64,000 bases of DNA. Source: Squalus acanthias (Eukaryota). Positions within the stretch are counted from its first letter, which is position 1, and every line of letters begins with the position of its first letter. Positions 9,822 to 56,646 of this stretch are shown here, in pieces. The position numbers and the translations under genes were made by a program. The notes under the pieces are model-generated. The model made no database searches. It was not told the DNA's origin and saw only the letters and a list, made by a program, of their open reading frames with translations. The stretch spans positions 128,714,001 through 128,778,000 of the forward strand of contig CM059431.1 in NCBI GenBank assembly GCA_030390025.1. Reading direction: 5' to 3'.

Positions 9822-12384
9822 ATAGTGGGGGGAAGGGTTCAGGTGAGGGGAAATTAAAAAAGTCAAAGAGAAAGGAGAAGGCAATAGTGCAGGGTAGCGA
9901 TAGAGGTAATGATAACCAGAATGTGACAGGAAAGGACAGAGCGTATAAATATACGAGTGGACTAGATAGTAGAGTCAGAGTAGGGGAAAATGGTATAAAG
10001 ACAAAATTAAAAGCTCTTTATCTGAATGCACACAGCATTTGTAACAAGATAGATGAGTTGACAGCACAAATAGAAATAAATGGGTATGTTCTGATAGCCA
10101 TTACAGAAACGTGGTTGCAAGGCGACCAAGGCTGGAAACTGAATATTCAGGGGTATTTGTCATTTCGGAAGGATAGGTAGAAAGGAAAAGGAGGTGGGGT
10201 AGCTCTGTTAATAAATGATGAGATCAATACAGTAGTGAGAAATTATATTGGCTCAGAAGATCAAGATGTAGAAGCAATTTGGATGGAAATAAGAAAAAAT
10301 AACGGAAAGAAGTCACTGGTGGGAGTAATCTCTCGGCCCCCTAACAGTAGCTACACTGTAGGACAGAGTATAAATCAAGAAATAATGGAGGCTTGTAAGA
10401 AAGGTACTGCAATAATAATGGGCGATTTTAATCTTCATATAGATTGGACAAATCAAATTGGCAAAGGTAGCCTTGAGGATAAGTTCATAGAGTGTATTCG
10501 GGATGTTTTCTAAGAACAATGCGTTGTGGAACCAACCAGGCTATTTTAGATCTGGTTTTGTGTAATGAGATAGGATTAATTAATGATCTCATAGTAAAGG
10601 CTCCTCTAGGGAAGAGTGATCATAGCATGTTAGAATTTCAAATTCAGTATGAGGGTGAGAAACTTGGGTCTCAAACTAATATCCTGAACTTAAATAAAGG
10701 CAATTACAAATTTATGAAGACAGAGTTGGCTAAAGTGGACTGGGAAAATAGATTAAAGGGTAAGACAGTAGATAAGCAGTGGCAGACATTTAAGGAGATA
10801 TTTCATAACTCTCAGCAAAGATATATTCCAGTGAGAAAGAAAGACTCTAAGAGAAGGATGAACCATCTGTGGCTAACTAAGGAAGTTAAGGATGGTATCA
10901 AATTGAAAACAAAGGCATACAATGTTGCAAAGATTAGTGGTAGGCGAGATGATTGGGAAATATTTAGCAACCAGCCAAGGACGACTAAAAAAAATAATAA
11001 AGAGGGAGAAGATAGATTATGAGAGTAAACCAGCAAGAAATATAAAAACAGACAGTAAGAGCTTCTACAGACATATAAAAAGGAAGAGAGTAGCTAAAGT
11101 AAACGTTGGTCCCTTAGAGGATGAGGCTGGGCAATTAATAATGGGAAACAGGGAAATGGCAGAGACTTTGAACAAATATTTTGTATCGGTCTTCATGGTA
11201 GAAGACACTAAAAACATCCCAATAATAATAGATAATCAAGGGGCTATAGGGAGGGAGGAATTTAAAACAATCACTATCACTAGAGAAAAAGTGCTAGGCA
11301 AACTAATGGGACTAAAGGTGGACAAGTCCCCTGGACCTGATGGCCTGCATCCTAGGGTCTTAAAAGAGGTGACTCTGGAGATAGTGGATGCGTTGATTGT
11401 AATCTACCAAAATTCCCTGGATTCTGGAGAGGTCCCAGCGGATTGGAAAACCGCAAATGTAACACTCCTATTCAAGGAAGGAAGGAGACAGAAAGCAGGA
11501 AACTATAGACCAATTAGCCTAACATCCGTCATTGGGAAAATGCTGGAGTCCATTATTAAGGAAGTAATAGCAGGACATTTAGAAAATCATAATACAATCA
11601 AGCAGAGTCAGCATGGTTTTATGAAAGGAAAATCGTGTTTGACAAATTTGCTAGACTTATTTGAGGATGTAACGAGTAGGGTGGAGAAAGGGGAACCAGT
11701 AGATGTAGTGTATTTGAATTTCCAGAAGACATTCGATAAGGTGCCACATAAAAGGTTACTGCACAGGATAAGAGCTCACGGTGTTGGGGGGAATATATTA
11801 GCAAGGATAGAGGATTAGCTAACTGACAGAAAACAGAGAGTCGGGATAAATGGGTCATTTTCAGGGTGGCAAACTGTAACTCGTGGGGTGCCACAGGGAT
11901 CAGTGCTGGGGCCTCAACTATTTACAATCTATATTAATGACTTGGATGAAGGGACCGAGTGTAATGTAACCAAATTTGCTGATGATACAAAGATAGGTGG
12001 GAAAGCAAGTTGTGAGGAGGACACAAAGGGGTAGAAATTAGGTCGCGCCCCATTTGGGGCGCAAATATCGTCCGCGCGCAAATATTAGCGCCTGGCGCTA
12101 ATTATCGGCACTGACAGGAAACTTCACTTTTACCGCCCCGGGAGGTGAGTGGAGCGCTAAATTAGGCGCTGCACACCTCTCTTAAGGCGCAAAGGCCTAG
12201 GAGTGAGGCGCTAACTCAGCGCACGAGCGCAGCGCAGCTGCTGCCAGTTAGCGCGGTAACACAGACACACTGGCGCCGGACACTTCTTAAAGCGGGGGGG
12301 GCCACTTGCTCCCCAGCCACACCCTGCTCATTGCAGCCTTGAATCTCAGCCTGGAGAGACCTGTAATCCATTTTGCTGCCAAGA

Positions 12385-14456
12385 ATGGAGAGGGTGAGAG
12401 AACGCGCTCATCGCTTCACCGAGCGGGCCTTGGATGCTCTGGTTGACGCAGTGGAGCGCAGACGATGCATGCTGTTCCCAGAGAGTGGCAGGAGGCCTTT
12501 GCCACGCGAGTTCAGAAGAGTGTGGAGGGAGGTGGCTCAGAGCGTCTCCTCCAGGAGTATGGTGCCCAGGACCCATGTCCAGTGCCGCAAAAAGTTCAAC
12601 GACCTCACTCGGGTCGTCAGGGTGAGTGGCTTTTTCTCAATACCTCTCCATCCCTCCATCTCAACCTCACTGTATGGCCAGAGGGTCTTAAAACCCCAAT
12701 GCACAACACTCATCCAACACCTATGGCCCTTTCATCAAACACACACACACATTCCACACTTTGCATACAGTAAGGGCTATTCACCTATGGGAGGCACATC
12801 AGGCAAGACCATGGCTGCATATTGTAAGGGCTATTCACCTATGGGAGGCACATCAGGCAAGACCATGGCTGCATATTGTAAGGGCTATTCACCTATGGGA
12901 GGCACATCAGGCAAGACCATGGCTGCATATTGTAAGGGCTATTCACCTATGGGAGGCACATCAGGCAAGACCATGGCTGCATATTGTAAGGGCTATTCAC
13001 CTATGGGAGGCACATCAGGCAAGACCATGGCTGTATATTGACTCAGATGCTGTCCTTTTTCTTGCAGGCTAAGCTGGCTCATAATCGGAGACAGCAGCAA
13101 CGGACGGGTGGAGGGCGGCTTCAGCTGCAACCCCTCAGCGATCTGGAGGAGCGCGTCCACAGGATTGTGGCAAGCCGGGTGATCGGTCCCGTCGCCACTG
13201 GAGACGCCGACCCCGTTGTGGACAGCAATGGTAAGGTCATCACCTTTTTGTCCTCTGTCCTTCCACTTGTCCCTCACAATACCAGCCTTTGACACTTTCA
13301 ATCCAACTTGCTAACTCGCTGCACTTATTCCTCCCTTACTGCCACCCTGTCCTCACGCTAAAGACACTCTTGTACCTCCCTGCTTTCAGATGGTGATTCA
13401 CCAGCTGAGGAGATGGTTCCTGAAGCTGCCACTGGGAGTGATGCTGCAGCTGAGGAGGAAGAGGAAGCCGGAGCATCAGTGCCACCCTCTCCCGAGGAAG
13501 CCCATGGCCACACTGGGAACATGCCTTCCCCGGAGGGGAGCAGGGGGGAAGGGGCTGATGATGGTGAAGTTCCAGGACCCAGCGGGCTGCAGCAACGCCA
13601 TGGGGGGGGGAGGGAAGAACGGGGGAGCAGGGGGGAAGGGGCTGATGATGGTGAAGTTCCAGGACCCAGTGGGCTGCAGCAACGCCATGGGGGGGGGAGG
13701 GAAGAACGGGAGCCTTCTCCCCAGAGGGAGAGTATGCCAGACACTCCTAATGCAATGGACGCAGAGGAGGAGCGGCTGATTGCAGAAATGAACAGCCAGG
13801 CGGTGGTCATGCACACTGAGCTCATGGGTGCAGTGGGAAGGGTGCCCGAATGCATTGAGGCACTGGCAAGGAGTGTGGAGCACTTCGCTGTAGCACAGGC
13901 GGATGCCACACTAAAGCTTACTGCTGCAATTCAGTCACTGGCTGCCAGGAACCCATCTGAGCCTGCTCTCATGCAGACTCAGATTGAGGCCACGCGAGCA
14001 CTGACTGCTGCCATCCTCGATGGTTCGTGCACATGTCCCCGGGGCTGTCACCGCGCCGCAGCAGGCCAGCAATCTGTTCTCAGGCAAATTGCTTCGGATG
14101 CTGAAGTGCTGCCCCGTGGGAGTGCCAGTGTGTCGGGCGAGCAGGGAGTTGCTGTCCTCTCTCACGATGACAGCATTCCTGCTGCCAACACTGTCACTTC
14201 TCCACTGCACTTGCCACCGCCTGTAGGACAGACTGCTGCCGCCCATGCAGAGTTGGTGCAGTCTGCAGCCGGGCCCTCCAGGCCCAGAAGTGGTCGAGGC
14301 CGTCCTTCAGGGGCATCTGCAGTGTCAGGGTCTGACAAGCAGCAGCCTTCCACCAGCCTTGCTGCAGCCACTGAGGTCCCATTACGGAGGAGCAGTAGGG
14401 TTAGAAGGGGGGAAGTGCGCAAGGGAAGGAGATCACCCTCGAAGGGCAAAAAGTAG
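12385..14456 (+). CDS. Harbinger Myb/SANT-like protein, three exons (12385-12621, 13068-13230, 13390-14456), 488 aa
   Basis: Exon 1 MERVRERAHRFTERALDALV...WREVA...QCRKKFNDLTRVVR then GTGAGT (phase 0). TTGCAG then AKLAHNRRQQQRTGGG...SN then GTAAGG (phase 1). TTTCAG then joins ORF 13413..14456 in frame. Total 1467 nt with no internal stop; basic NLS-like C-terminus. Confidence 0.88.
12770..13039 (+). repeat. 54-bp tandem repeat x5 in intron 1 of the Myb-like gene
   Basis: Unit GTAAGGGCTATTCACCTATGGGAGGCACATCAGGCAAGACCATGGCTGCATATT; one C>T change in the last copy. Confidence 0.97.
13535..13708 (+). repeat. 87-bp in-frame tandem duplication in Myb-like exon 3
   Basis: GSRGEGADDGEVPGPSGLQQRHGGGREER occurs twice; one synonymous difference (AGC/AGT). 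Confidence 0.95.
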
Positions 14457-14750
14457 GAGGTGTGCCAAAATGCTGGTCATTTTTTTATTAAAGGCCGAGG
14501 TTCATGGCCCAACTTTTGTTTAGTGTTTTGGACATTATCTCCAGGTTGTGAGAACCAGTTATGTTATTGACTGTTTTTTTGTGTTTATTTCTATGAGTTT
14601 GTCATGAGGAATTGACACACACAGAGTTTGTACAATAAATAAGTTTCTGTATTCAAAATATACATGGCTGGTGGTTGGAATTATTGGTGCCTTGGCCGGC
14701 TTAGGGGTTGCGTGCTGGGTTGATTCGTGTTTGTAGCACTGGCAGGGGCC

Positions 14751-15911
14751 CTAGAAGCGGCTTGCTATTAGTCGTTGACGGACGGCCCTTGCAGTTTGAC
14801 CATTGTGGGCCGCCCTCCTGCCTTGGTGCTGCTGCTGATCATCGTCCTCGGCCTGTTCCTCCTCTTCCTCCTCCTCCTCTTGTGGTGCTGCAAGGCCTGG
14901 TGGCATTGGCTGCGTCCTGAGGATTGCCATGTTGTGCAACATGCAGCACACCACTACGAATTTGGAAACTTGCTCAGGCGAGTACTGCAGGGCTCCTCCG
15001 GAATGGTCCAGACAGCGGAATCGTTGTTTGAGCACGCCGATTGTGCGCTCAATAATGTTCCTCGTTGCTTGTTGGCTTTCCTGGTACCGCAGCTCAGCAG
15101 GGGTGTTTGGCGCACGGAGCGGTGTCATCAGCCAGGTGCTCAATGCGTACCCCTTGTCCCCCAGAAGCCAACCAACTGGCTGATGCGGTGCCTCGAAAAT
15201 TTCTGCCACAGTACGCTGGCGCAGGATGAAAGCATCGTGGCAGCTGCCCGGATAGTGGGCATTGACAGCGAGAATCACCTGTCTGTGGTCACAGACCAAC
15301 TGCACATTCAAGGAATGGAACCCCTTTCTGTTCCGGAACTCCTCTGCATTCTCTCGCGGAGCACGCAAAGCCACATGCGTGCAGTCAATGGCGCCCTGCA
15401 CCATGGGGAAGCCCGCTACCCTCGCAAAGCCCATAGCACGGTCATGCTGCTTGTCTGGGGTCATAGGGAAGGAGATGAAGTCTCGTCTCCTTGTGAAGAG
15501 GGCATTGGTGACCTGCCGGATGCAGCGATGCACCGCAAACTGGGAGATATTGGCGAGGTCCCCAACAGCAGCTTGGAATGAGCCAGTGGCGTAGAAGTTC
15601 AAGGCCACTGTGACCTTCACTGCCACCGACAGAGACGTCCTGGACCTCAGCTGAGGCTGCAGATCTGGCTGCAGCAGGTGGCAGAGCTCAGTGACCACCT
15701 CCTTGCTGAATCGCAGCCTTCGCAAACACAGCTCCTCGGACATGTGGATGTAGGAGAGCTGTTCACGATATACTCTGGGAGGGTAAGCTCTCCTGTACAT
15801 GCGCCTGATGGGCCTCCTCCGTCTGGCCATAATTGCCACTCTCTGTCTGCGTCTCACTCTGCTCCGATTGAGCTGGAGCAGGACGACGCCCCCAATCATT
15901 GCAGCCCCCAT
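14751..15911 (-). CDS. Harbinger DDE transposase (HARBI1-like), 386 aa, uninterrupted
   Basis: [68 protein letters not shown], acidic tract and basic C-terminus; all three catalytic acidic residues present. Confidence 0.95.
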   Translation of the reverse strand: MGAAMIGGVVLLQLNRSRVRRRQRVAIMARRRRPIRRMYRRAYPPRVYREQLSYIHMSEELCLRRLRFSKEVVTELCHLLQPDLQPQLRSRTSLSVAVKVTVALNFYATGSFQAAVGDLANISQFAVHRCIRQVTNALFTRRRDFISFPMTPDKQHDRAMGFARVAGFPMVQGAIDCTHVALRAPRENAEEFRNRKGFHSLNVQLVCDHRQVILAVNAHYPGSCHDAFILRQRTVAEIFEAPHQPVGWLLGDKGYALSTWLMTPLRAPNTPAELRYQESQQATRNIIERTIGVLKQRFRCLDHSGGALQYSPEQVSKFVVVCCMLHNMAILRTQPMPPGLAAPQEEEEEEEEQAEDDDQQQHQGRRAAHNGQTARAVRQRLIASRF

Positions 15912-16099
15912 CTTCTCTTTGCCAGAAAAGTAATGAGGTACAGCAACGAAAGTAGCAGCAAAGTTAGGATGAACTAGGCAAAACTACCTCACAAAGCGTT
16001 GAGTCAATGTAGAAGTCTCTCTCTCTCTCTCTCCGAATCTCTCTCTCTCTCTCAGAACGAGTGGTGCATAAATGTCGACCACAGAAAAAGACAGGAAGA

Positions 16100-16255
16100 G
16101 GCCCCCTTTAAATAGCGCCCCCCCCCAGCCCCAGACCGATTGATAACGTTCCAGTCTTCCGGTCGTTGGAAGCGCCAGGCGGTAAGGCAGGGGGCGCCAC
16201 TCAATTTCCGCTCCGGGGCGCCCCAAGGGCGTTGCACCACGGACTGACGTCACAA
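16100..16255 (-). promoter_or_regulatory. Putative transposase promoter (TATA-like box plus CRE)
   Basis: TATTTAAA on the minus strand at about 16107-16114, roughly 200 bp upstream of the ATG; perfect TGACGTCA at 16245-16252. Function inferred. Confidence 0.5.
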
Positions 16256-17325
16256 TCTGCGCGCGCAGGTGGTCGCAGCGGTAAGTTTTAGCGCCGCCGC
16301 ACAATCTCAAGTTAAGTTCTCGAGCGGCGCAAACAGCGCTGCGCCCGGGCGTTAGCGCCTTAACGCCCCATTAGCGCCCATTTAAGGCGCTAACGGGAGG
16401 CGCAACCAACTGAATTTTTACCCCAAAGAATTTGCAAAGGGAAATAGATAGGTTAAGTGACTGGGCAAAAATTTGGCAGATGGAATATAACGTGGGAAAA
16501 TGTGAGGTTATCCACTTTGGTAAGAAGAATAAAAAAGCAAATTATTATTTAAATGGAGTGAGACTACAGAATGCTGCGGTACAAAGGGATCCGGGGATCC
16601 TCGTACATGAAACACAAAAAGTTAGCATGCAGGTACAGCAAGTAATTAGGAAGGCAAATGGAATGTTGACCTTTATTGCAAGGGGGATGGAATATAAAAG
16701 TAGGGAAGTCCTGCTGCAACTGTACAGGCGTTGGTGAGACCACACCTGGAGTACTGCGTACAGTTTTGGTCTCCTTATTTAAGGAGGGATATACTTGCAT
16801 TGGAGGCAGTTCAAAGAAGGTTCACCAGGTTTATTCCTGAGATGAAGGGGTTGTCTTATGAGGAAAGGTTGAGCAGGTTGGGCCTATACTCATTGAAGTT
16901 TAGAAGAATGAGAGGTGATCTTATTGAAACATATATGATTCTGAGGGGGTTGGACAGGGTAGATGCAGTGAGGATGTTTCCCCTCATGGGGGAATCTAGA
17001 ACTAGGGGGCAAAAGTTTCAGAATAAGGGGTTGACCATTTAAAACGGAGATGAGGAAGAATTTCTTCTCTCAGAGGGTCATGAAACTTTGGAATTCTCTA
17101 CCCCAGAAGGCTGTGGAGGCTGGATCATTGAATATATTTAAGGTGGAGATAGACAGATTTTTGAACTATGGAGGAGTCAAGGGTTATGGGGAATGGGCAG
17201 GAAAGTGGAATTGTGGCCAAGATCAGATCAGCCATGATCTTATTGAATAGTGGAGCAGGCTCGAGGGGTCAAATGGCCTACTCCTGCTCCTATTTCTTAT
17301 GTTCTTATGTTCTTATGTTTTTCAC

Positions 17326-31563: not shown

Positions 31564-33515
31564 ATGAGTTCACAAAGACAGAGGGCTGCACTCCGCTTTT
31601 CCAATGACTCCCTACATATTCTTGTGGAGGGAGTCAGAGCATGCAGGGAGGTCTTCTTCCGTGCTGATGGGCAGAAGAGGTCTCCTCAAGAGACCAAAAG
31701 GACCTGGCTCCAAATTGCTGAGGAGGTCAACAGCAGGGATGTCATCAGGAGGACCTGGATACAGTGCAGGAAGGGCTTCAATAATTTGCTGAGATCAGGA
31801 AAGGTGAGTGCAATGCCACACTCACCCTCATCCTGCTCTGCCTGTCAACACATCCCCATCACTCAGCCTTGCCAAGCCTACTCCACACCAACATACCTTG
31901 CACGTCCACTCACCGCTCTCTCTCTATGTGCATACTCACATCCCCATCTGACTAACCACCCCTCACACTCACCTTCATCTTAATGTAATCATAACAAGTA
32001 ACACCACAGAAAGAGGCCATTTGGTATTGGCACGCCACTCCCTCATAGTCACCCTCTGCAGATGTAACCCATCCATTCCTTACACTCATTCCATCACTCT
32101 CACTCAAACTTCTCTTCATTCCCTCCTTGCAGGAGAAAAGAGCCCAGAACAAGAGAGAGAGGGAGAGAACCGGAGGTGGCCCTCCATCCTTCAGTACTTT
32201 GACTGCAACAGAGGAGGTGGCCCTGGAGGTGTTGAGAGTTGCAGAGCTGCTGGCGGTGAGAAAAAAGAAAGGCTTACATTTATATAGTGCCTTTCCCGAC
32301 CCAAAGTGCTTTACAGCCAATGAAGTACTCTTTGAACTGTAGTCACTGTTGCAATGTGGGAGACTGAGAGAGGGGGACCTCTCAGCAACCTGGTGACAGA
32401 ATTACATCTCATACAGCCACATGGCATACATCAGTCACTCATATGGTGACTGATGTCAGCAGCCAGTGAATGTTCATCAGGTGCGTAATGGTATTGTTAT
32501 CTATTCTTAATATAACATATCTAACTCATCTCTTTACTTTCCCACAGGTCCATCAAGAGTCCCCCCACCACTGTCCAGCCAGAGGAGGAAGATGACTCCT
32601 CTGAGGAGCCTCCAGCCTCTGAAGGTGCACAGTCAGCAGACCCAGGCGCACCCAGCACCAGCACAGATACACACACCTCGGTGGGTCCTATGCGAGATAG
32701 GGTTGTGTTGTCACCTGGTGTCTCACACTTCACAAGTGAGCAAGAGCAGATGGTGTTGACAGGGACAGCAGTGGAGACTCCTCACCAGAGGGTGCAGGAC
32801 GCTCCCAGCTCTGCTCAGCTGCATGCAGACGCTGAGCCTCAGGGGCCATCGAGAAAGGGGGTGATCCTGGAGGGGCAGCAAGAAATGCAGTAGGCTCTGG
32901 CAGGTTTTGCAGCCACGATGTCTGCAAATGTGGAGAGAATGGAGGAGTCCATCTCCAACATGGACACCACCGTGTTGCAGGCGATGGCGACAATGTGCTC
33001 TTCCATGGAAAGGATGGCCACCTGCATGGAGAAGCTAATGCACCACTCACATGAGCACATGCTAGCTATGGAGAACAGATGGCCGAGGCTCATAGACCTC
33101 CTCTCTAGGAGGGATGTAAAAGTAGGTTTGGGTCCTCATGGCCCACTGCAGTGCAGCAAGGTGCTCTCCAGCTCCTTGCTAGCAGGGAAGTGCGGGTGAC
33201 CCATGAGAGGGATGATGGTGAGGGGGACATGGAAGTGGGGGTTCCTCTCAAAGCGCTCCCACTTTTCCCCATTGCCACCCCCTCGGTCAGAGTCCCAGAT
33301 GCTTCCTCGGCTCGCGATGGCCGTCTGTCCCTGCACAGTCACAGGAGGAGCAGTCTTTCGTGGGGCCCTCACAGGCTCCAAAACCCAGAGGACGTGCGCC
33401 AAATGTGTCAACGCAGTCGCAGCAGGGAAGTGAGCAGCCTGCCACTAGCTCTGCTGAAGCCACAGGGGTTGCACCTCATAGAAGCACACATAAAAGAAAA
33501 AAGCCACAATCCTAA
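31564..33515 (+). pseudogene. Harbinger Myb/SANT-like pseudogene
   Basis: MSSQRQRAALRFSNDSL...WLQIAEEVN...WIQCRKGFNNLLRSGK then GTGAGT; EKRAQNKRERERTGGGP; SINE-tail insertion and stops. Confidence 0.88.
32258..32357 (-). mobile_element. About 100-bp SINE/L2-type 3' tail inserted in Myb-like exon 2
   Basis: Reverse complement CAACAGTGACTACAGTTCAAAGAGTACTTCATTGGCTGTAAAGCACTTTGGG...CACTATATAAATGTAAGCCTTTCTTT; absent from the paralogous exon at 60786-60935. Confidence 0.75.
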
Positions 33516-33829: not shown

Positions 33830-34950
33830 TCTGGCTATTATGAGGCCATCCTTGGCAATGTGCTCCGCTGCTGATGCCATCTGGACCTCAGGTTCCTCCT
33901 CCTCCTCCTGCTCCAGCTGATGCTCCTCCTCCTCCTCTTCTGAAGAGGCTGTGTGCTCAGAGCCTTGCTCCTCATGCAGCGCTAATCCTCGTTACTGCGC
34001 TATGTTGTGCAGCGCGCAGCAGACGATGATGATTCTGGAGACCCTGGCTGGTGCTTACTGAAGGGCTCCTCCAGATCTGTGAAGGCATCTGAAGCGCATC
34101 TTCAACATCCCTATTGTTTACTGTATGACACATCTGGTGGACATGTGACTTTCATTATAACGCTCCTTGGCATCATTGCTTGGCCTCTTCAAGGGTATCA
34201 TGAGCCATGTTTTTAGTGGATAGCCCTTGTCGCCAAGTGTGTTTGGTGGTGCAAAGAGCTGAGGGAGGGTGGACTGGCACAGGACGAAAGAGTCATGACA
34301 GCTGCCAGGGAATTTGGCACACACATGCTTGATGATCTTCCTATGGTTGAGACAAGCTGCACATTGAGGGAGTGGAAGCCCTTGCGGTTGACAAAGACTC
34401 CTGAGTGATGATGGGGTGCCCTGATGGCCACATGCGTGCAGTCGATGATGCCCTGCACCCGTGGGAAGCCAGCCAGTGTGGCAAAGCCGAACGCCTGCTC
34501 AGTAACACTGGCTTCATCAGTGGCAAAGTTGATATAATTTTCTGACTTGTCAAAGAGGGCATCGGTGACTTGTGTGATGCACCTGTGGGTGGCCAACTGC
34601 GAGATGCCACAAATGTCTGCTGCAGATCCCTGGAAGGAACCTGAGGTGAAGAAGTTGAGGGCGTTGGTGACTTTGACCGCCAATGGTAAGGTGTGTCCAC
34701 CAGGACCTCTGGACTGCAGGTCTTGTTCCAGCAAGCTGCAAATGTCTGCGATGACCTGGTGCGATAGCCTGAGCCTCCTTTGGCACTGCTGCCCAGTCAT
34801 GTTGAGGAAGCTCATCCTCTGCCTGTATATCCTGTGTTGGGAGTATCGCCTCCGGCGCGCTGCAGCCCTGCGCTGATGCCATCTGTCATTGAGGAGAAGG
34901 TTGGTGGTGTTGTTGCTGCTGCTGCTGCTGCTGGTGGGGCTCATCCTGAT
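33830..34950 (-). pseudogene. Harbinger transposase pseudogene
   Basis: [21 protein letters not shown], frameshift, [26 protein letters not shown]. Confidence 0.93.
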
Positions 34951-47764: not shown

Positions 47765-48626
47765 ATTCACTGTAACTCACTAAGCCACTTCCAAAGGTGC
47801 ACACAAATCTGTCCAAGAACGCAAATTGTTGAAATGAAAGGTTTCAATGTTTGACACCACATTAACAGAAACTCTTCAGGAACATTGCATAAAACACCCA
47901 AGTGCCTACCCTTAGGCGTTGTTAGTTGGTATAATTGTACTAAGATGAGGGTGAGTGTGAGGGGTGGCTAGTGAGATGGGGAAGTGATAATGTAGATAGA
48001 GAGGGATGGGTGGAGGTGCAAGGTAAGTTGCTGTGATTAAGGATGTGCAGGAGTAGGGTAAGGAAGGCAGAGTGATGGGGACGTGATGAGTGGCACAGGA
48101 GGATGAGGTCGAGTGTAGTTTTGTACTAACGTTTTGTGATCTACTAAGATCATTGAAAGGTTTGCGCCACTGCAGCCTGGTCCTCCTGACGACATCCCTG
48201 CTTGTGCCCTCCTGTGCAATGTGCAACCAGGCTGCGTTGGTCTCCTGGGAAGGTCTCTTCCGCCCATTGGAAGGGAAGAGGACCCTCGCTGCGTGCTGTG
48301 ACTCCCTCCATAAGCATATAGAGCTGTCATGGAAGAGCCTGGGTGCAGCCATGCACCTCTGTGCAGTGTTTGTCAGTGTTTGCAGCACCTCAGTGCTCTA
48401 GAACACTGACAGCACAAATGTCAAAATAAATTTGCGCATGGTCCGTTTAAGGAAACCGGTTGATGACACGTCTTCAAATGACGTTATCAGACCCGCTTCC
48501 TTCAATTGGCTGGGAAACGCGCAGGGCGGGCTTAACAAGCTCAATCAATGGAAAATCATTTTGGACAGCGGGCTGGAGCCGGCAGCGAGGCCGGGACCCG
48601 CCGAGGTTGGTAAAATCCAACCCGTT

Positions 48627-49654: not shown

Positions 49655-51915
49655 AGCCCATAAAGTTGATGGCACTGCAGCTGGTGTAAAATGGGCTTCT
49701 AATGATTCAATATGGCGGGTAGTGTGCACGTGCTCATTCCGTGATGGAAGTGCACCGTCTGTCATATTGGATTGGGCTCCTCCATAGTGTGAAGTCTACA
49801 AATATCACTACAAATATTACCAACACCAAATCTAGAGAAAAAAAATCCAACAACTCAATTCCATTTGTGTATAATATTTAGCAGGAATAATTAAGAATTA
49901 CCCTTATACAACCCCTTGATCCCTGTCTTGTGTGCTTGTTTCCCTTTCCTAGTATTCCTACGAAGTGTATCCCCAGTGGCTACAGCTTGGGAGGTGGAAG
50001 GTTGCTGAGCTTCCATTGAGAAAACTTCAAATGACTGTGGTAGGTGACCTTGAGCAGTTCTAGGCCTTGAGGCCATGTCTGCAGACTGCATCATCCTGTG
50101 TGGGCCGGGGCAGACTGGTCCAGCTGGCTGTGTGGCACTAACAAGGACACTGGCCAGGTGGGTTGTGGGGGAGCAGGCATGCTGTCTTCCTGAGAGATGA
50201 CAGCAGGTGCCTCTTCCATGAAGCCAAGGCCACTCTCCTGGTATTGCACCTCAGCATTCCTATGGCTCTGGGCGAGAAAACTGTCCAGGAGTGATATGAT
50301 GCTCTGGTAGCCTCCATCAACAGTGGCACCTACAGCCAAGGTGGCAGCTGCCTGAGCTTCTGTAGCAGCAGTATGACCTACCATGGAAGCTGTCAGAGCT
50401 GTCAACAAAGGCTCAATCATGATGGGAGCCTCTGACATGTTCATGGAGCTGACCACTTACTCCATGTTGAACAGAATGGTCTCCATGCCCTGCGCAAAGC
50501 AAGTTGGAGCTGTACTCCTCCATTCTCTCAGCCATTGCATGCAAGTTTTCTGGCAGGCTGCCCAATCCACCAGCATTTCCTAATGGTAGCCTGGACCCTC
50601 GAAGTCAGCATCTGAGTTCTCTGCAGCAAAGCTAGTATGTGATCTCGTCCTCCAGCGAGCTGGCACCTGTGGTATCCTATCCTTCTGCCTAGCTCCTGCT
50701 CACTTGTGGCCAGTGATTCACCGTATGAAGACACCTCCTCTAACCTATCCTCTAAAATATACGTGATGCCAGTCTCTGAGCTGGTGCTTGCTGGGGTCAG
50801 ATCAAGCGACGCTGCATCTTCAGGAAGGCTAGCCTCCTCTTCCTGAAGTGGCACAAAGCTGTCAACATTTTCTGCACCTGAAATGAAATAGATGGACAAG
50901 GGTTAGCTTTTAGTGTGAAGAGAGAGCAGAGATGAGTGGCTGATGAAAGCAGCTACAGCTTGTCATGCAGAGTGTGTGGGGGGAGATAGATTAAGAAGGG
51001 GAAAAGAGGATAAAGTGTGAGCAAACCCTGCACGACATCTCCTCCAGTATTGCCAGTTGTCACGGCCATGACTCTCCCCCTGCTCGTGATAGCCACCATG
51101 TCTCCTTCCAGAGGGGAAAGGATATGCAGGGAACTCTGCCTCTTCCAGTCATGGCCTCCTGATGCATGATATATGTGACCTTCTCCTGCAAGAAAGAAAA
51201 TAATGTATTAATGACAGCCTTGTGAGGTGTTAGAGAATGTGCCTGTCATGTTAGAAATGTTCATATGTTGTATGGAAGATGTGAGGTGTGGGGAAGTGAA
51301 GGTTGCAATAGTGGTGAGAGTAGGAAGCACAGAGTGAAGTGTGGTGCAGTGATCGTAGGAGAGTGAAGGGAAGTGGTGGAGGTGATGTTGTAAGTAGTGA
51401 GGCTGCAGGTGGTGCAGATGTGAGGTGAGAGTAACTGATGTGAGAGGTAAGATTCTTACCTTAATAACTCTGGTGTGGTTACTGAACTTTTTCTGCATCG
51501 CAGCCATGTTCTGGGAGCTAAGCTTTGACCTCTTCTGCAACCTTTTCCCACTGGCGATAGTGGTGTTGCCTCCAGGGAGAACAGGATCTCACTCTTCCTG
51601 TCGACAGCTTGGATCAGGGCCTCCAAAGCTACATCCGAGAACTTGGATGACATCCTGTACCTCTTTCAGCCATTCTGTACCTTTCACAACATTTGCCTAG
51701 TGTCTGCAGCCACAGTGCACCTTCCATTTAAGAGGTGCTAGCAGTCTTTAAGTGGTGTCAGTCAAGCCCAATTTTCCTTGACCTCAAACAGGTACGCAGC
51801 CAATGAATAGCATGGGTAAAGGTGGCTGCACACCTGATTCATGATAATGAGCTAGCAACACCAATTTCAGGTGGTCCCTGCACACATATCTTCAGGAACA
51901 ATTGAATTTCTGAGC
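49655..51915 (-). mobile_element. Old Harbinger derivative retaining only a Myb-like pseudogene
   Basis: SKFSDVALEALIQAVDRK and QKKFSNHTRVIK then GTAAG; a TTGCAG acceptor; PSTSQA...LRRNTRKGK C-terminus. No transposase seen; boundaries approximate. Confidence 0.7.
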
Positions 51916-55874: not shown

Positions 55875-56646
55875 GGGGTAAAAATTGGGTAGTGCCCACT
55901 TTGGGGTGCTAACTTCGCCGGGGCGCTAATTTTAGTGCCCCGAAAAAGTTAGCACCCCCGCTGCTGATTTTCCCAGGTAGCGCCCCAAGAGGAAGCAGGG
56001 TGCTACTGGAAGTACCCCGCCACCCTCTTGGGGCGCTGCGAGCCAATATCGAGGTGCTACGTGCTGCAACGCCACGTGCTGCAGCACATCGCTCCGTGGT
56101 ACTGCAGGCCTTCCTCCCCTTATTAAAGGGGAGGGGCCTGGCTCAGCGCATCCCGGCACTCAGCTGGGCCACCAGGGATCGGGATTGCCGGCAAATGAGC
56201 CCGGCACTCAAGAGGAGTGCCGGGCTCGCGGAGAGCAGTCGGAACCACGTGGGGGGGGGGGGCTTCACGGGGGCTGGGGCCAGCAATGGGGGCAGGTGCT
56301 GGCAGGCGGCGTGCAACAGAAATGGCGGCCCGTCACCTCCCCTTTAATGAGCAGTGTCCCAGCCGTAGGTAGGCCCCCCCGACCCCAGCGGACATAGCGT
56401 CCAGCAGTAAGTCAGGGGGCCCCACCCAATATTACAGCGGGGGCATGAGCAGGGCGATGCGCAGGCGATGATGTCATCGCCGGCGGCACAGCGCCCTGTG
56501 GCGCTAATGGTTAGCGCTGCTGCTAACCTGCCGCTGAATTTCGTGGGAGGCATTAGCGGTAACGCGCCCAGGTGCTGGTTCATTTGCGCCCTGTTAGCGC
56601 CCTCTTAGGGCGCTAATGGGAGGTGCAAATCAAGCGAATTAGCCCC
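55875..56646. mobile_element. GC-rich Harbinger MITE related to the intact element, 772 bp
   Basis: ATG TSD at 55872-55874 and 56647-56649; left end GGGGTAAAAATT. Subterminal TTAGCGCC/GGCGCTAA motifs are shared with 12028-16424. Confidence 0.92.

What the first reader, a model, noticed from the sequence alone, without database searches (positions are those of the whole stretch)
12028..16424. Intact, potentially mobile two-component Harbinger transposon
Seen: both TIRs, a perfect TSD, an uninterrupted 386-aa DDE transposase, and a three-exon Myb/SANT-like gene whose GT-AG junctions give a stop-free 488-aa protein. The genes converge on shared poly(A) signals (AATAAA about 14634 on +, TTTATT about 14584 for -), and the ends retain CpGs. 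Established: Harbinger transposition needs both proteins, and the zebrafish Harbinger3_DR system had to be reconstructed from inactive copies. Inference: this may be a naturally competent vertebrate element and a tool candidate. Caveat: it reads YQESQ where other copies here read YNESH or YNESQ.
Basis: partly seen in the sequence, partly recalled or inferred. Interest (0 to 1): 0.9.

Follow-up and report, generated by a model that had tools for sequence, protein, structure and literature searches.

The report
Young, abundant Harbinger transposon family copy
This is one complete copy of a two-gene Harbinger "cut-and-paste" transposon that has spread to thousands of nearly identical copies in what looks like a shark or ray genome, so the family moved very recently, although this copy carries a suspicious private change in its transposase.

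Summary
The element spans 12028-16424 (4,397 bp) and has 12-bp terminal inverted repeats, a 3-bp AAA target duplication, an open 386-aa DDE_Tnp_4 transposase and a three-exon, 488-aa Myb-like gene. The genes converge and the ends are CpG-rich.

The copy is not special. The 3.7-Gb genome holds 13,211 matches to its 5' end and 28,881 to its 3' end. It has 7,163 Myb-gene starts and at least 2,700 transposase-bearing copies. These fall into three subfamilies with the same termini, reading YNESH (1,575 exact), YQESH (253) and YQESQ (881).

The window copy belongs to the youngest subfamily, YQESQ. Its sampled copies differ pairwise by 0.42-0.64%, and two copies on different chromosomes are identical. 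Target duplications match in 35 of 39 copies. Both frames are open in 27 of 30 copies chosen by likeness and in 5 of 10 chosen by position.

Contigs of two probable RNA runs join exon 2 to exon 3 exactly at the predicted intron. YQESQ is therefore a subfamily trait, not a private defect.

The window copy does carry a private S233R change. That position is Ser in 19 of 19 homologues and in 39 of 40 sampled sister copies.

Verdict: a new, recently (possibly currently) active member of a known superfamily. Competence of this copy is unproven.

The parts
12025..12027 (.). [quoted passage not shown]
   Evidence: same 3 bases at 16425-16427
12028..12039 (+). 5' terminal inverted repeat GGGGTAGAAATT
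   Evidence: 11 of 12 match to the 3' end; same terminus in sister copies; the 5' 30-mer occurs 13,211 times in the genome
12085..12214 (.). 5' subterminal region with three TTAGCGCC/GGCGCTAA motifs (12085, 12094, 12207); candidate binding sites of the Myb-like protein (inferred)
   Evidence: 11 in the window against 0.6 expected; 7 of them in the two ends of this element; positions kept in the 893-bp non-autonomous relatives
12385..12621 (+). Myb-like gene exon 1 (79 codons, phase 0): Myb/SANT-like DNA-binding domain
   Evidence: Pfam PF13873 E 1.3e-9, PF13837 E 1e-6
12622..13067 (+). intron 1 (GTGAGT...TTGCAG), holding a 54-bp tandem repeat x5.2 at 12762-13040
   Evidence: The acceptor position is kept in an old diverged copy at window 1170-1500. 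Splicing was not seen in the rows shown; one contig runs unspliced across the donor
13068..13230 (+). Myb-like gene exon 2 (163 nt)
13231..13389 (+). intron 2 (GTAAGG...TTTCAG)
   Evidence: joint 13229->13389 (cut +1), GT..AG, in contigs of runs X17 (2 contigs) and X19 (1 contig), in neither DNA run
13390..14456 (+). Myb-like gene exon 3, including the stop. It has an acidic low-complexity part with an in-frame 87-bp repeat x2 (13535-13710), a predicted helical part and a basic tail
   Evidence: Single-sequence model: pLDDT 52.7, helices at exon-3 residues 124-238. No Pfam family, no homologue at E<=1e-3
14584..14639 (.). convergent poly(A) signals: AATAAA 14634-14639 (+) for the Myb-like gene and 14584-14589 (-) for the transposase gene. 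The predicted 3' UTRs overlap
   Evidence: read from the sequence; actual cleavage sites not shown
14751..15911 (-). transposase ORF, 386 aa plus stop. Features: D176, D252, E288; motif YQESQ at 276-280; private R233
   Evidence: Pfam DDE_Tnp_4 E 5.5e-37; alignment A1. Model pLDDT 79.5 with an HTH-like part and an RNase H-like core. Nearest solved folds are piggyBac (Z 9.3) and Tn5 (Z 8.8) transposases
16018..16057 (.). (TC)n-rich 20-bp repeat x2 in the transposase upstream region; varies in length between copies
16288..16393 (.). 3' subterminal region with four TTAGCGCC/GGCGCTAA motifs (16288, 16352, 16371, 16386)
16413..16424 (-). 3' terminal inverted repeat (AATTTTTACCCC on the plus strand)
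   Evidence: the 3' 30-mer occurs 28,881 times in the genome
16425..16427 (.). right copy of the target site duplication (AAA)
10922..11818 (+). reverse-transcriptase ORF of the LINE into which the element inserted (host of the insertion, not part of the element)
   Evidence: Pfam RVT_1 E 2.5e-12; contigs of other LINE copies run straight across the insertion point (tables 5, 5c, 7)

Best explanation
Window 12028-16424 is a full-length copy of an autonomous-type PIF/Harbinger DNA transposon. The genome's nearest annotated relatives are all shark and ray proteins.

Inferred mechanism, by homology with Harbinger3_DR and Ping/Pong:
- The spliced Myb-like protein binds subterminal motifs. The candidate motif here is the inverted TTAGCGCC pairs within about 260 bp of each end.
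- It brings the DDE transposase (D176, D252, E288) to the ends.
- The element is cut out and pasted into an 11-bp palindromic target, A-S-W-C-[TWA]-G-W-S-T, duplicating the central 3 bp.

The lineage evolved in this genome through subfamilies reading YNESH, then YQESH, then YQESQ. The YQESQ subfamily, to which the window copy belongs, is the youngest wave.

My odds:
- it is a PIF/Harbinger element: 0.98
- the YQESQ subfamily transposed very recently on an evolutionary scale: 0.9
- it is still transposing in living animals: about 0.45
- the window copy can be mobilised in trans (ends intact): 0.8
- the window copy's own transposase (S233R) is fully competent: about 0.3
For: Identity:
- Pfam DDE_Tnp_4 E 5.5e-37 and Myb_DNA-bind_5 E 1.3e-9.
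- The DDE residues align with 19 homologues.
- The model has an RNase H-like core; nearest folds are piggyBac and Tn5 transposases at Z 9.3 and 8.8.

Mobility:
- 39 assessable copies at different loci share the termini, and 35 of 39 have matching 3-bp duplications, mostly TTA, TAA, TTG, TTT and TAT.
- 34 unique sites give the palindromic target preference: A 32/34, C 27/34, T 25/34, G 25/34, T 29/34.
- For copy L007, at least 8 paralogous units of a tandem array have the two flanks abutting with exactly 3 bp of overlap. These are precise empty sites.

Youth:
- Mean pairwise difference is 0.64% among the 30 best matches and 0.42% among 10 copies taken by position.
- L008 and L009, on different chromosomes with different flanks, are identical. 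Seven further sampled copies (L004, L010-L014, L037) cluster with them.
- The tree shows successive sub-lineages.

Abundance:
- 13,211 5' ends, 28,881 3' ends and 7,163 Myb starts.
- Exact motif 30-mers: 1,575 YNESH, 253 YQESH, 881 YQESQ. All reversed controls gave 0.

Coding state:
- Transposase frame open in 28/30 and 8/10 copies; Myb frame open in 29/30 and 6/10; both open in 27/30 and 5/10.
- Splice dinucleotides intact in 40/40.

Transcripts: the intron-2 junction is present in contigs of X17 and X19 (two studies, two organism codes) and absent from the two DNA runs.

Non-autonomous partners: a family of about 893 bp has identical terminal 30-mers, 6/6 matching duplications and 1.6% pairwise difference.

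The window copy's ends differ from the majority state at only 12257, 12384 and 16244. None of these lies in the TIRs or the motifs.
Against: - No transposition event, excision footprint or insertion polymorphism was observed. The joints across the window's insertion site come from other LINE copies, because they carry other letters.
- At 0.2-0.3% from the majority state, open frames are expected from youth alone, so they do not prove function.
- The synonymous/non-synonymous contrast between shared and singleton variants is not significant: 9 non-synonymous to 12 synonymous against 50 to 31, Fisher p = 0.14.
- N277 and H280 are N and H in 19 of 19 aligned homologues. Of 66 homologues that a regular expression could place, out of 120, none has Q at the N position and one has Q at the H position.
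- YNESH copies with the same termini and open frames exist (2 of 2 sampled), so the YQESQ wave could have been moved in trans.
- 37% of singleton changes (53 of 143) are CpG transitions. This fits germline methylation of inserted copies.
- The letters seen in the RNA-like runs mostly fit the older subfamilies: 23-25 of 38 listed sites match L048/L049, and 0 of 38 match the window copy. Expression is therefore shown for the lineage, not for this subfamily or copy.
- The window copy carries the private S233R.
- In the sample taken by position, 4 of 10 Myb frames are broken, mostly in G-runs of the 87-bp repeat. These could also be assembly errors.
Confidence: 0.8

Rival explanations
1. The YQESQ transposase is dead or weak. 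The young YQESQ wave was mobilised in trans by the older YNESH (or YQESH) subfamily, which has identical termini. YQESQ copies would then be passengers, as mPing is for Ping and Pong.
For: - N277 and H280 are N and H in 19/19 aligned homologues.
- There are 1,575 exact YNESH 30-mers in the genome.
- Both sampled YNESH copies have open 386-aa frames and the same first and last 12 bases.
- Cross-mobilisation between Ping and Pong at 62-77% protein identity is documented (PMC2836001, passages read).
- The letters in the RNA-like runs fit the older subfamilies better.
Against: - The two sampled YNESH copies differ by 1.7%, against 0.42% among YQESQ copies. A trans-acting YNESH source should also have made young YNESH copies. 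With n = 2 this is weak.
- The ordered series YNESH, YQESH, YQESQ, with a younger age for the last, is what a continuously active master lineage produces.
- Both changes keep a hydrogen-bonding amide side chain (my own judgement).
- H to Q also occurs in a distant family in the same window, which reads YNESQ.
Confidence: 0.2
2. The family burst recently but is now silenced or extinct, for example by piRNA and DNA methylation. All copies are then fixed relics, and the window copy is a fossil that merely looks intact.
For: - No polymorphism or de novo event was seen.
- CpG transitions are 53 of 143 singleton changes.
- 4 of 10 Myb frames and 2 of 10 transposase frames are broken in the sample taken by position.
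- Active PIF-Harbinger families are among the top piRNA producers in axolotl (PMC7618676, passages read).
Against: - Two 4.4-kb copies at different loci are identical, and several others differ from them by 1-3 bases.
- Spliced transcripts of the lineage are present.
- CpG observed/expected is still 0.88-1.03 at the ends.
Confidence: 0.45
3. The window copy itself is a naturally competent autonomous element.
For: Both frames are open, all four splice sites and both ends are intact, and the target duplication is perfect.
Against: - Private S233R: Ser in 19/19 homologues, Ser in 39/40 sister copies, Thr in 3/3 older copies.
- Further private changes: M27I in the transposase, and T178M and P369S in the Myb-like protein.
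Confidence: 0.3
4. The copies arose by segmental duplication, gene conversion or assembly collapse or polishing, not by transposition.
For: - L028 and L030 share flanks on one unplaced contig.
- Polishing of repeats could lower the apparent divergence.
Against: - 34 unique flanks each have their own 3-bp duplication, and there is a shared target palindrome.
- Precise empty paralogous sites exist.
- The copies lie on many chromosomes.
Confidence: 0.02
5. It is a domesticated HARBI1/NAIF1-like host gene pair, as the database names of its relatives ("putative nuclease HARBI1") suggest.
For: The nearest annotated proteins carry that name.
Against: It has thousands of copies with TIRs and target duplications. 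The best identity to any named protein is 65%.
Confidence: 0.01

Closest known systems
Harbinger3_DR of zebrafish (reconstructed; Sinzelle et al. 2008, known to me only through PMC9710019 and PMC2836001, passages read)
   Same: [quoted passage not shown] In Harbinger3_DR the Myb-like protein binds a subterminal motif and carries the transposase into the nucleus. Here this is inferred from repeated subterminal TTAGCGCC motifs.
   Different: Harbinger3_DR had to be rebuilt from consensus sequences. Here hundreds of native copies have both frames open. The conserved YNxxH block reads YQESQ, and the Myb-like C-terminal part has no detectable homologue.
PIF / Ping / Pong with mPing and Tourist MITEs in maize and rice (PMC2836001, passages read)
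   Same: - Separate ORF1 (Myb-like) and transposase genes, both needed.
- A 3-bp TTA/TAA-type duplication.
- An extended palindromic target preference: 9 bp in plants; here 11 bp with the same C-TWA-G core.
- Abundant short non-autonomous partners with the same ends.
- Related autonomous subfamilies able to cross-mobilise.
   Different: This is an animal element. The genes are convergent, and the Myb-like gene has three exons. The non-autonomous partner is about 893 bp, longer than typical MITEs. The PIF 9-bp target consensus that I compare with is recalled, not retrieved.
Harbinger expansions in salamanders: axolotl, more than 1,000 likely active PIF-Harbinger copies (PMC7618676, passages read); Pleurodeles, transcriptionally active (cited in PMC9179366, passage read)
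   Same: A vertebrate genome with a very large set of apparently intact, expressed Harbinger copies.
   Different: The host lineage differs (cartilaginous fish). In the held library, Harbinger was reported absent from elephant shark, with other cartilaginous fishes "to be analysed" (PMC9179366). It is only listed among DNA transposons in whale shark and grey reef shark (PMC8455134, PMC12498223; passages read).
HARBI1 / NAIF1, the domesticated vertebrate pair
   Same: The same transposase fold family and the same partnership with a Myb-like protein. Database relatives of this transposase are named after HARBI1.
   Different: HARBI1 is a single-copy host gene without TIRs or target duplications. 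This element has both, and thousands of copies.

Membership tests
PIF/Harbinger superfamily | transposase of the DDE_Tnp_4 type with the catalytic D, D, E | tested here: met
   Pfam PF13359 E 5.5e-37, profile 1-158 of 158. D176, D252 and E288 with R284-x3-E288-x6-K295 in alignment A1. DDE present in 39/40 sampled copies. RNase H-like model.
PIF/Harbinger superfamily | second, separate gene for a Myb/SANT-like DNA-binding protein | tested here: met
   Exon 1 matches PF13873 at E 1.3e-9. The spliced frame of 488 aa is open. The intron-2 junction is seen in RNA-like contigs.
PIF/Harbinger superfamily | 3-bp target site duplication, typically TTA/TAA (PMC3014272 and PMC2836001, passages read) | tested here: met
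   35 of 39 assessable copies have matching 3-bp duplications: TTA 7, TAA 6, TTG 5, TTT 4, TAT 4, others 9. The window copy has the less common AAA.
PIF/Harbinger superfamily | short terminal inverted repeats (about 14-25 bp per PMC3014272; about 15 bp per PMC9710019) | tested here: met
   11 of 12 terminal bases match, then similarity is only scattered. This is at the short end of the quoted range.
PIF/Harbinger superfamily | extended palindromic target preference around the duplication | tested here: met
   A-S-W-C-TWA-G-W-S-T from 34 unique sites.
PIF/Harbinger superfamily | conserved Y-N-x-x-H block before the catalytic E (near-invariant in relatives; not a formal criterion) | tested here: not met
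   This subfamily reads YQESQ, against N and H in 19/19 aligned homologues. Older subfamilies with the same termini read YNESH and YQESH.
PIF/Harbinger superfamily | both proteins required for transposition; Myb-like protein binds subterminal sites and interacts with the transposase | not testable with these tools
   Candidate sites only: TTAGCGCC 7 times in the ends. The complex prediction never ran because the queue was full.
Autonomous, currently active element | new insertions or insertion polymorphism between individuals | tested here: inconclusive
   Joints across the window's site belong to other LINE copies. Only one read-laying run was available.
HARBI1-type domesticated gene | single-copy host gene without TIRs or target duplications | tested here: not met
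   Thousands of copies with TIRs and duplications.

The most novel reading that the evidence does not exclude
The YQESQ subfamily may be transposing today in this cartilaginous fish, driven by its own unusual transposase. In that protein two residues that are N and H in all 19 aligned relatives changed stepwise (YNESH, YQESH, YQESQ) along the lineage that kept amplifying. Native copies would then work without reconstruction as a two-component vertebrate transposon with an 11-bp palindromic target preference. The N277Q and H280Q changes would be tolerated, or even advantageous, variants of the Harbinger active-site neighbourhood.
Probability: 0.35. Interest if true: 0.75.

Novelty: new member of a known kind. 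Interest (0 to 1): 0.6.

Why it matters
Few naturally active cut-and-paste transposons are documented in vertebrates (my recollection, not checked here). The Harbinger system used in cells was rebuilt from dead zebrafish copies.

Here a cartilaginous-fish genome holds hundreds of native copies with both genes open, together with two older subfamilies and a short non-autonomous partner. This gives three things:
- a natural series for testing what the near-invariant N and H next to the catalytic Glu do;
- a clean case for studying target choice, through the 11-bp palindrome;
- a marker system for recent genome change in a lineage usually described as dominated by LINEs and poor in DNA transposons (1.58% in grey reef shark, PMC12498223).

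My searches of the held library found no description of such a family in sharks or rays. Repbase and Dfam could not be consulted, so it may already be catalogued there.

Tried and rejected
1. Insertion polymorphism at the window's site. The joints 12012-12030 -> 16433 in X2 and X19 carry extra letters and match the LINE consensus seen as a loose end at 12028. They are other LINE copies, not an empty allele. Nothing can be said.

2. RNA holders. No listed run is on record as RNA. X17-X20 are guesses, and only the spliced joint argues that X17 and X19 contain RNA.

3. Intron 1. No joint for it appears among the 15 rows shown (25 rows not shown), and X17 has a contig running unspliced across the donor. 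Only conservation of the acceptor in an old copy supports it.

4. X19 has no cover at 13508-14047. This is not interpreted.

5. Myb-like exon 3 gave nothing useful.
- No Pfam family.
- No homologue at E<=1e-3 among 8,000 scored candidates.
- The Atlas best score was 0.82, below the useful range.
- The single-sequence fold was of low confidence.

6. Transposase against solved structures. There was no sequence match and no Foldseek match at E<=1e-3. Only VIA-align gave the general DDE-transposase fold.

7. Complex prediction (transposase with the helical part of the Myb-like protein) was never accepted because the queue was full. No result exists.

8. Selection test. The N:S contrast between shared and singleton variants is not significant, p = 0.14.

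I worked with 10 YQESQ copies, 6 short elements and 3 older copies.

10. Earlier findings of this scan: none for this genome.

11. Sinzelle et al. 2008 is not held under the PMC id that I recalled.

12. Depths were not used as copy numbers.

Full report
**What is in the window**

The stretch 12028-16424 (4,397 bp) begins GGGGTAGAAATT and ends AATTTTTACCCC. The two ends match as inverted repeats in 11 of 12 bases and are flanked by AAA on both sides.

On the minus strand an ORF at 14751-15911 gives 386 aa without a stop. It matches Pfam DDE_Tnp_4 over the whole profile at E 5.5e-37.

On the plus strand three exons (12385-12621, 13068-13230, 13390-14456), joined at GT..AG introns, give a stop-free 488-aa protein. 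Exon 1 is a Myb/SANT-like domain: PF13873, E 1.3e-9.

The two genes converge on AATAAA signals at 14634-14639 (+) and 14584-14589 (-). If both are used, the 3' UTRs overlap (cleavage sites not shown).

CpG observed/expected is 0.88 and 1.03 in the two end regions, against 0.33-0.40 in the flanks.

Intron 1 holds a 54-bp tandem repeat (5.2 units). Exon 3 holds an in-frame 87-bp repeat (2 units).

The element interrupts the reverse-transcriptase region of a LINE.

**It is one of thousands**

The window lies in a 3.7-Gb assembly. A search with the whole element scored 34 full-length matches at 99% identity or more, the window's own included. These came from 3,112 first-look candidates, of which only 33 were scored.

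Exact-pattern counts give the scale. All reversed-pattern controls gave 0.

| Pattern | Mismatches allowed | Places |
|---|---|---|
| 5' terminal 30-mer | up to 2 | 13,211 |
| 3' terminal 30-mer | up to 2 | 28,881 |
| first 30 bases of the Myb-like gene | up to 2 | 7,163 |
| 30-mer across the YQESQ codons | up to 2 | 1,703 |
| 30-mer across the YQESQ codons | 0 | 881 |

I paired by hand the zero-mismatch ends listed for the first 35 Mb of contig C1. This gave two size classes: 12 elements of 4.1-4.5 kb and 13 of about 893 bp.

**The copies are real, independent insertions**

I sampled 40 copies: the 30 best matches, plus the first 10 places on C1 from the list.

- 39 could be assessed; one has a truncated 3' end.
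- 35 of the 39 have matching 3-bp duplications that differ from locus to locus: TTA 7, TAA 6, TTG 5, TTT 4, TAT 4, AAA 2, CTA 2 and five singletons.
- The four mismatches are L005, L006, L034 and L040.
- The 34 unique pre-insertion sites share an 11-bp palindrome, A-S-W-C-[T-W-A]-G-W-S-T: A 32/34, C 27/34, T 25/34, G 25/34, T 29/34. This extends the C-TWA-G core that I recall for plant PIF. PMC2836001 states a 9-bp extended preference in plants.

One copy, L007, sits in a tandem array on unplaced contigs. At least eight paralogous units there, 94-99% identical, have the upstream and downstream flanks abutting with exactly 3 bp of overlap. These are precise empty sites.

**Age**

- The 30 best matches differ pairwise by 0.64% on average, range 0-1.09%.
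- The 10 copies chosen by position differ by 0.42%, range 0.11-0.60%, over 3,644 repeat-free columns. They lie 0.19-0.33% from the majority state.
- L008 and L009, on different chromosomes with different flanks and duplications, are identical over 4,396 bp. L004, L010-L014 and L037 cluster with them; L010-L014 differ from L008/L009 by 1-3 bases and L004 by about 5.
- A tree of the 40 copies shows several nested sub-lineages rather than one star. This fits amplification over a period.
- 53 of 143 singleton changes are CpG transitions.

As an illustration, take an assumed neutral rate of about 1e-9 per site per year. This is my assumption; cartilaginous fishes are usually said to be slower. Then 0.2-0.3% corresponds to a few million years, and identical 4.4-kb copies to at most a few hundred thousand.

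**Coding state**

| Sample | Transposase frame open | Myb frame open | Both open |
|---|---|---|---|
| 30 copies chosen by likeness | 28/30 | 29/30 | 27/30 |
| 10 copies chosen by position | 8/10 | 6/10 | 5/10 (Wilson 95% interval 24-76%) |

- All four splice dinucleotides are intact in 40/40 copies.
- The four broken Myb frames are one-base changes, mostly in G-runs of the 87-bp repeat. These could also be assembly errors.
- The sample of 10 required a perfect 30-mer in the transposase gene, so it leans slightly young.
- At this divergence open frames are expected from youth alone. The contrast of non-synonymous to synonymous changes between shared (9:12) and singleton (50:31) variants points the expected way but is not significant, p = 0.14.

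**The YQESQ question**

In an alignment with 19 homologues, D176, D252 and E288 (R284-x3-E288-x6-K295) are in place. N277 and H280 are N and H in all 19, where this element has Q and Q. A regular expression could place 66 of 120 homologues. Of those, 53 read YNxxH, none has Q at the N position and one has Q at the H position.

YQESQ is not private: 38 of 40 sampled copies read it, one reads YQES* and one is not covered.

The genome also holds full-length relatives with the same first and last 12 bases and 1.7-3.1% mismatches to the window copy.

| Copy | Motif | Transposase frame | Residue 233 |
|---|---|---|---|
| L047 | YQESH | open, 386 aa | Thr |
| L048 | YNESH | open, 386 aa | Thr |
| L049 | YNESH | open, 386 aa | Thr |

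Exact 30-mer counts are 1,575 for YNESH, 253 for YQESH and 881 for YQESQ. The two YNESH copies differ from each other by 1.7%, against 0.42% within YQESQ.

The simplest reading is one lineage that kept amplifying while its motif changed stepwise from YNESH to YQESH to YQESQ. The YQESQ form is the latest wave. This argues that the changes are tolerated.

It also creates a concrete rival. Canonical YNESH copies with compatible ends could have moved the YQESQ copies in trans, as Ping and Pong move mPing (PMC2836001).

**The window copy itself**

Against the majority state of 30 copies it has 13 differences, 10 of them private.

- None touches the TIRs or the subterminal motifs, so it should be mobilisable.
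- In the Myb-like protein the private changes are T178M and P369S, both in the non-conserved part.
- In the transposase they are M27I, in the variable N-terminus, and S233R.
- Position 233 is Ser in 19/19 homologues, Ser in 39/40 sister copies and Thr in the three older copies. Arg there is a private, non-conservative change.
- The runs laid show the family base, not the window's, at 12558, 12672, 13522 and 15215. This is as expected for private changes in one of many copies.

**Transcripts**

No run is on record as RNA. Contigs of X17 (organism code A) and X19 (code B), from two studies, contain a joint 13229->13389 that reads GT..AG with the cut one base to the right. That is exactly predicted intron 2 (13231-13389). 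The two DNA runs X2 and X9 do not show it, and 40 of 40 sampled genomic copies keep the intron.

Intron 1 was not seen spliced in the 15 rows shown (25 rows not shown), and one X17 contig runs unspliced across its donor. Its acceptor position is kept in an old, diverged Myb-like relic at window 977-1575.

The other letters listed for these runs agree with the older subfamilies at 23-25 of 38 sites and with the window copy at 0 of 38. Expression is therefore shown for the lineage, not for the YQESQ subfamily or this copy.

**Ends and likely binding sites**

The 8-mer TTAGCGCC occurs 11 times in the window against 0.6 expected; 0 of 100 shuffles reached 11. Seven occurrences lie within about 260 bp of this element's two ends, as inverted pairs, and none is internal. 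The other four lie in a 772-bp non-autonomous relative at 55875-56646.

The motif positions are kept in the 893-bp family, although the rest of its ends is only 83% (5') and 91% (3') identical to the autonomous element. In Harbinger3_DR the Myb-like protein binds a subterminal 9-bp motif and carries the transposase into the nucleus (PMC9710019, passage read). By analogy I propose TTAGCGCC as the site here. This is an inference.

**Proteins**

The transposase model (20-sequence alignment, pLDDT 79.5, pTM 0.77) has helices resembling an HTH at about residues 59-145 and an RNase H-like core at 171-331.

- Foldseek found nothing at E<=1e-3.
- VIA-align ranks piggyBac (Z 9.3, 238 residues, rmsd 5.4), Tn5 (Z 8.8), ISCth4 (Z 8.6) and Tn4430 (Z 8.4) transposases first, followed by retroviral integrases.
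- No solved structure matches by sequence.

The C-terminal 354 residues of the Myb-like protein have no family and no detectable homologue. A low-confidence single-sequence model shows helices at exon-3 residues 124-238, between an acidic repeat region and a basic tail.

**Relatives and literature**

The nearest annotated proteins are all shark and ray entries named "putative nuclease HARBI1". The best is 65% identical over 90% of the query. No near-identical protein is catalogued in that collection, and the HARBI1 name is a misnomer for such elements.

In the held library:
- A survey found no Harbinger in elephant shark and called for other cartilaginous fishes to be analysed (PMC9179366, passages).
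- Whale shark and grey reef shark papers only list the superfamily (PMC8455134, PMC12498223, passages).
- Axolotl is reported to hold more than 1,000 likely active PIF-Harbinger copies (PMC7618676, passages).
- Anolis has only domesticated relics (PMC3014272, passages).

My searches found no description of this family. Repbase and Dfam were not available.

The element's 31-mers occur in 20 runs of 11 named studies (one further row names no study), under seven organism codes, with shares of 0.37-0.84. Contigs of one of them, X9 (code C), differ from the window copy by 1-3%. Whether this is vertical descent in related species or transfer cannot be told from coded names.

**Verdict**

It is a new member of a known kind: a very young, very abundant, probably still mobile Harbinger lineage in a cartilaginous fish. 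Its useful extras are the natural series of motif variants and the clear palindromic target.

Noticed in passing
L005/L006 = G000:C2:166205702-166214504: Two sister copies, 0.23% apart, lie head to head with an 11-bp spacer. Each has mismatched flanking triplets (ATA/TAT) that would match if the spacer were inverted. This fits two insertions into adjacent target sites followed by recombination between the inverted copies.
   Followed up: partly
L010, L020, L032 flanks: Three independent copies sit at the same position of another repeat, with an identical 25-bp upstream flank. That repeat's ...ACTCTATGACT... sequence is a perfect match to the target palindrome, so it is a hot spot. L020 and L015 also have another element end 11 bp away.
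   Followed up: partly
window 55875-56646: A 772-bp non-autonomous relative with GGGGTAAAAATT-type ends, ATG duplications and four TTAGCGCC motifs. It belongs to a more distant family than the 893-bp one.
   Followed up: partly
window 5282-6126(-), 33953-34833(-), 63441-63998(-); Myb-like relics at 977-1575, 3377-3688, 31564-31794, 48140-48283, 49897-50094, 60202-60432: There are at least three other, decayed Harbinger transposase relics (33-55% aa identity) and six Myb-like relics in the same 64 kb. One relic reads YNESQ, so H to Q arose more than once.
   Followed up: partly
window 12385-13041: The frame of Myb exon 1 stays open through intron 1, including the 54-bp repeat (18 aa per unit), to a stop just before the acceptor. 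This holds in 36 of 37 copies where the start was found, giving 164-254 aa depending on unit number. If the intron is retained, a Myb-domain-only protein would result. Whether that is made, or acts as a regulator, is unknown.
   Followed up: partly
G000, about 893-bp elements, e.g. L041-L046: An abundant short non-autonomous family with terminal 30-mers identical to the autonomous element and an unrelated stretch of about 100 bp between its end regions. It has 6/6 matching duplications and 1.6% pairwise difference, so it is older than the YQESQ wave. It explains the loose ends at 12365 and 16086.
   Followed up: yes
runs: Words of the element are held by runs under seven different organism codes in 11 studies. 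Either several related species carry it or it has moved between species.
   Followed up: no
L007 = G000:C2997:1665412-1669808 and contigs C3223, C3278: The flanks belong to a large tandem array with units 94-99% alike on unplaced contigs. The nature of the array was not determined.
   Followed up: no
L028 and L030 on G000:C757: The same insertion with the same flanks appears twice, about 55 kb apart on one unplaced contig. This is either a segmental duplication or an assembly duplicate.
   Followed up: no
window 13535-13710 and sister copies: The 87-bp exon repeat (29 aa) varies between 1 and 3 units, and the 54-bp intron repeat between about 2 and 7 units. Frameshifts cluster in the G-runs of the 87-bp unit.
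   Followed up: partly
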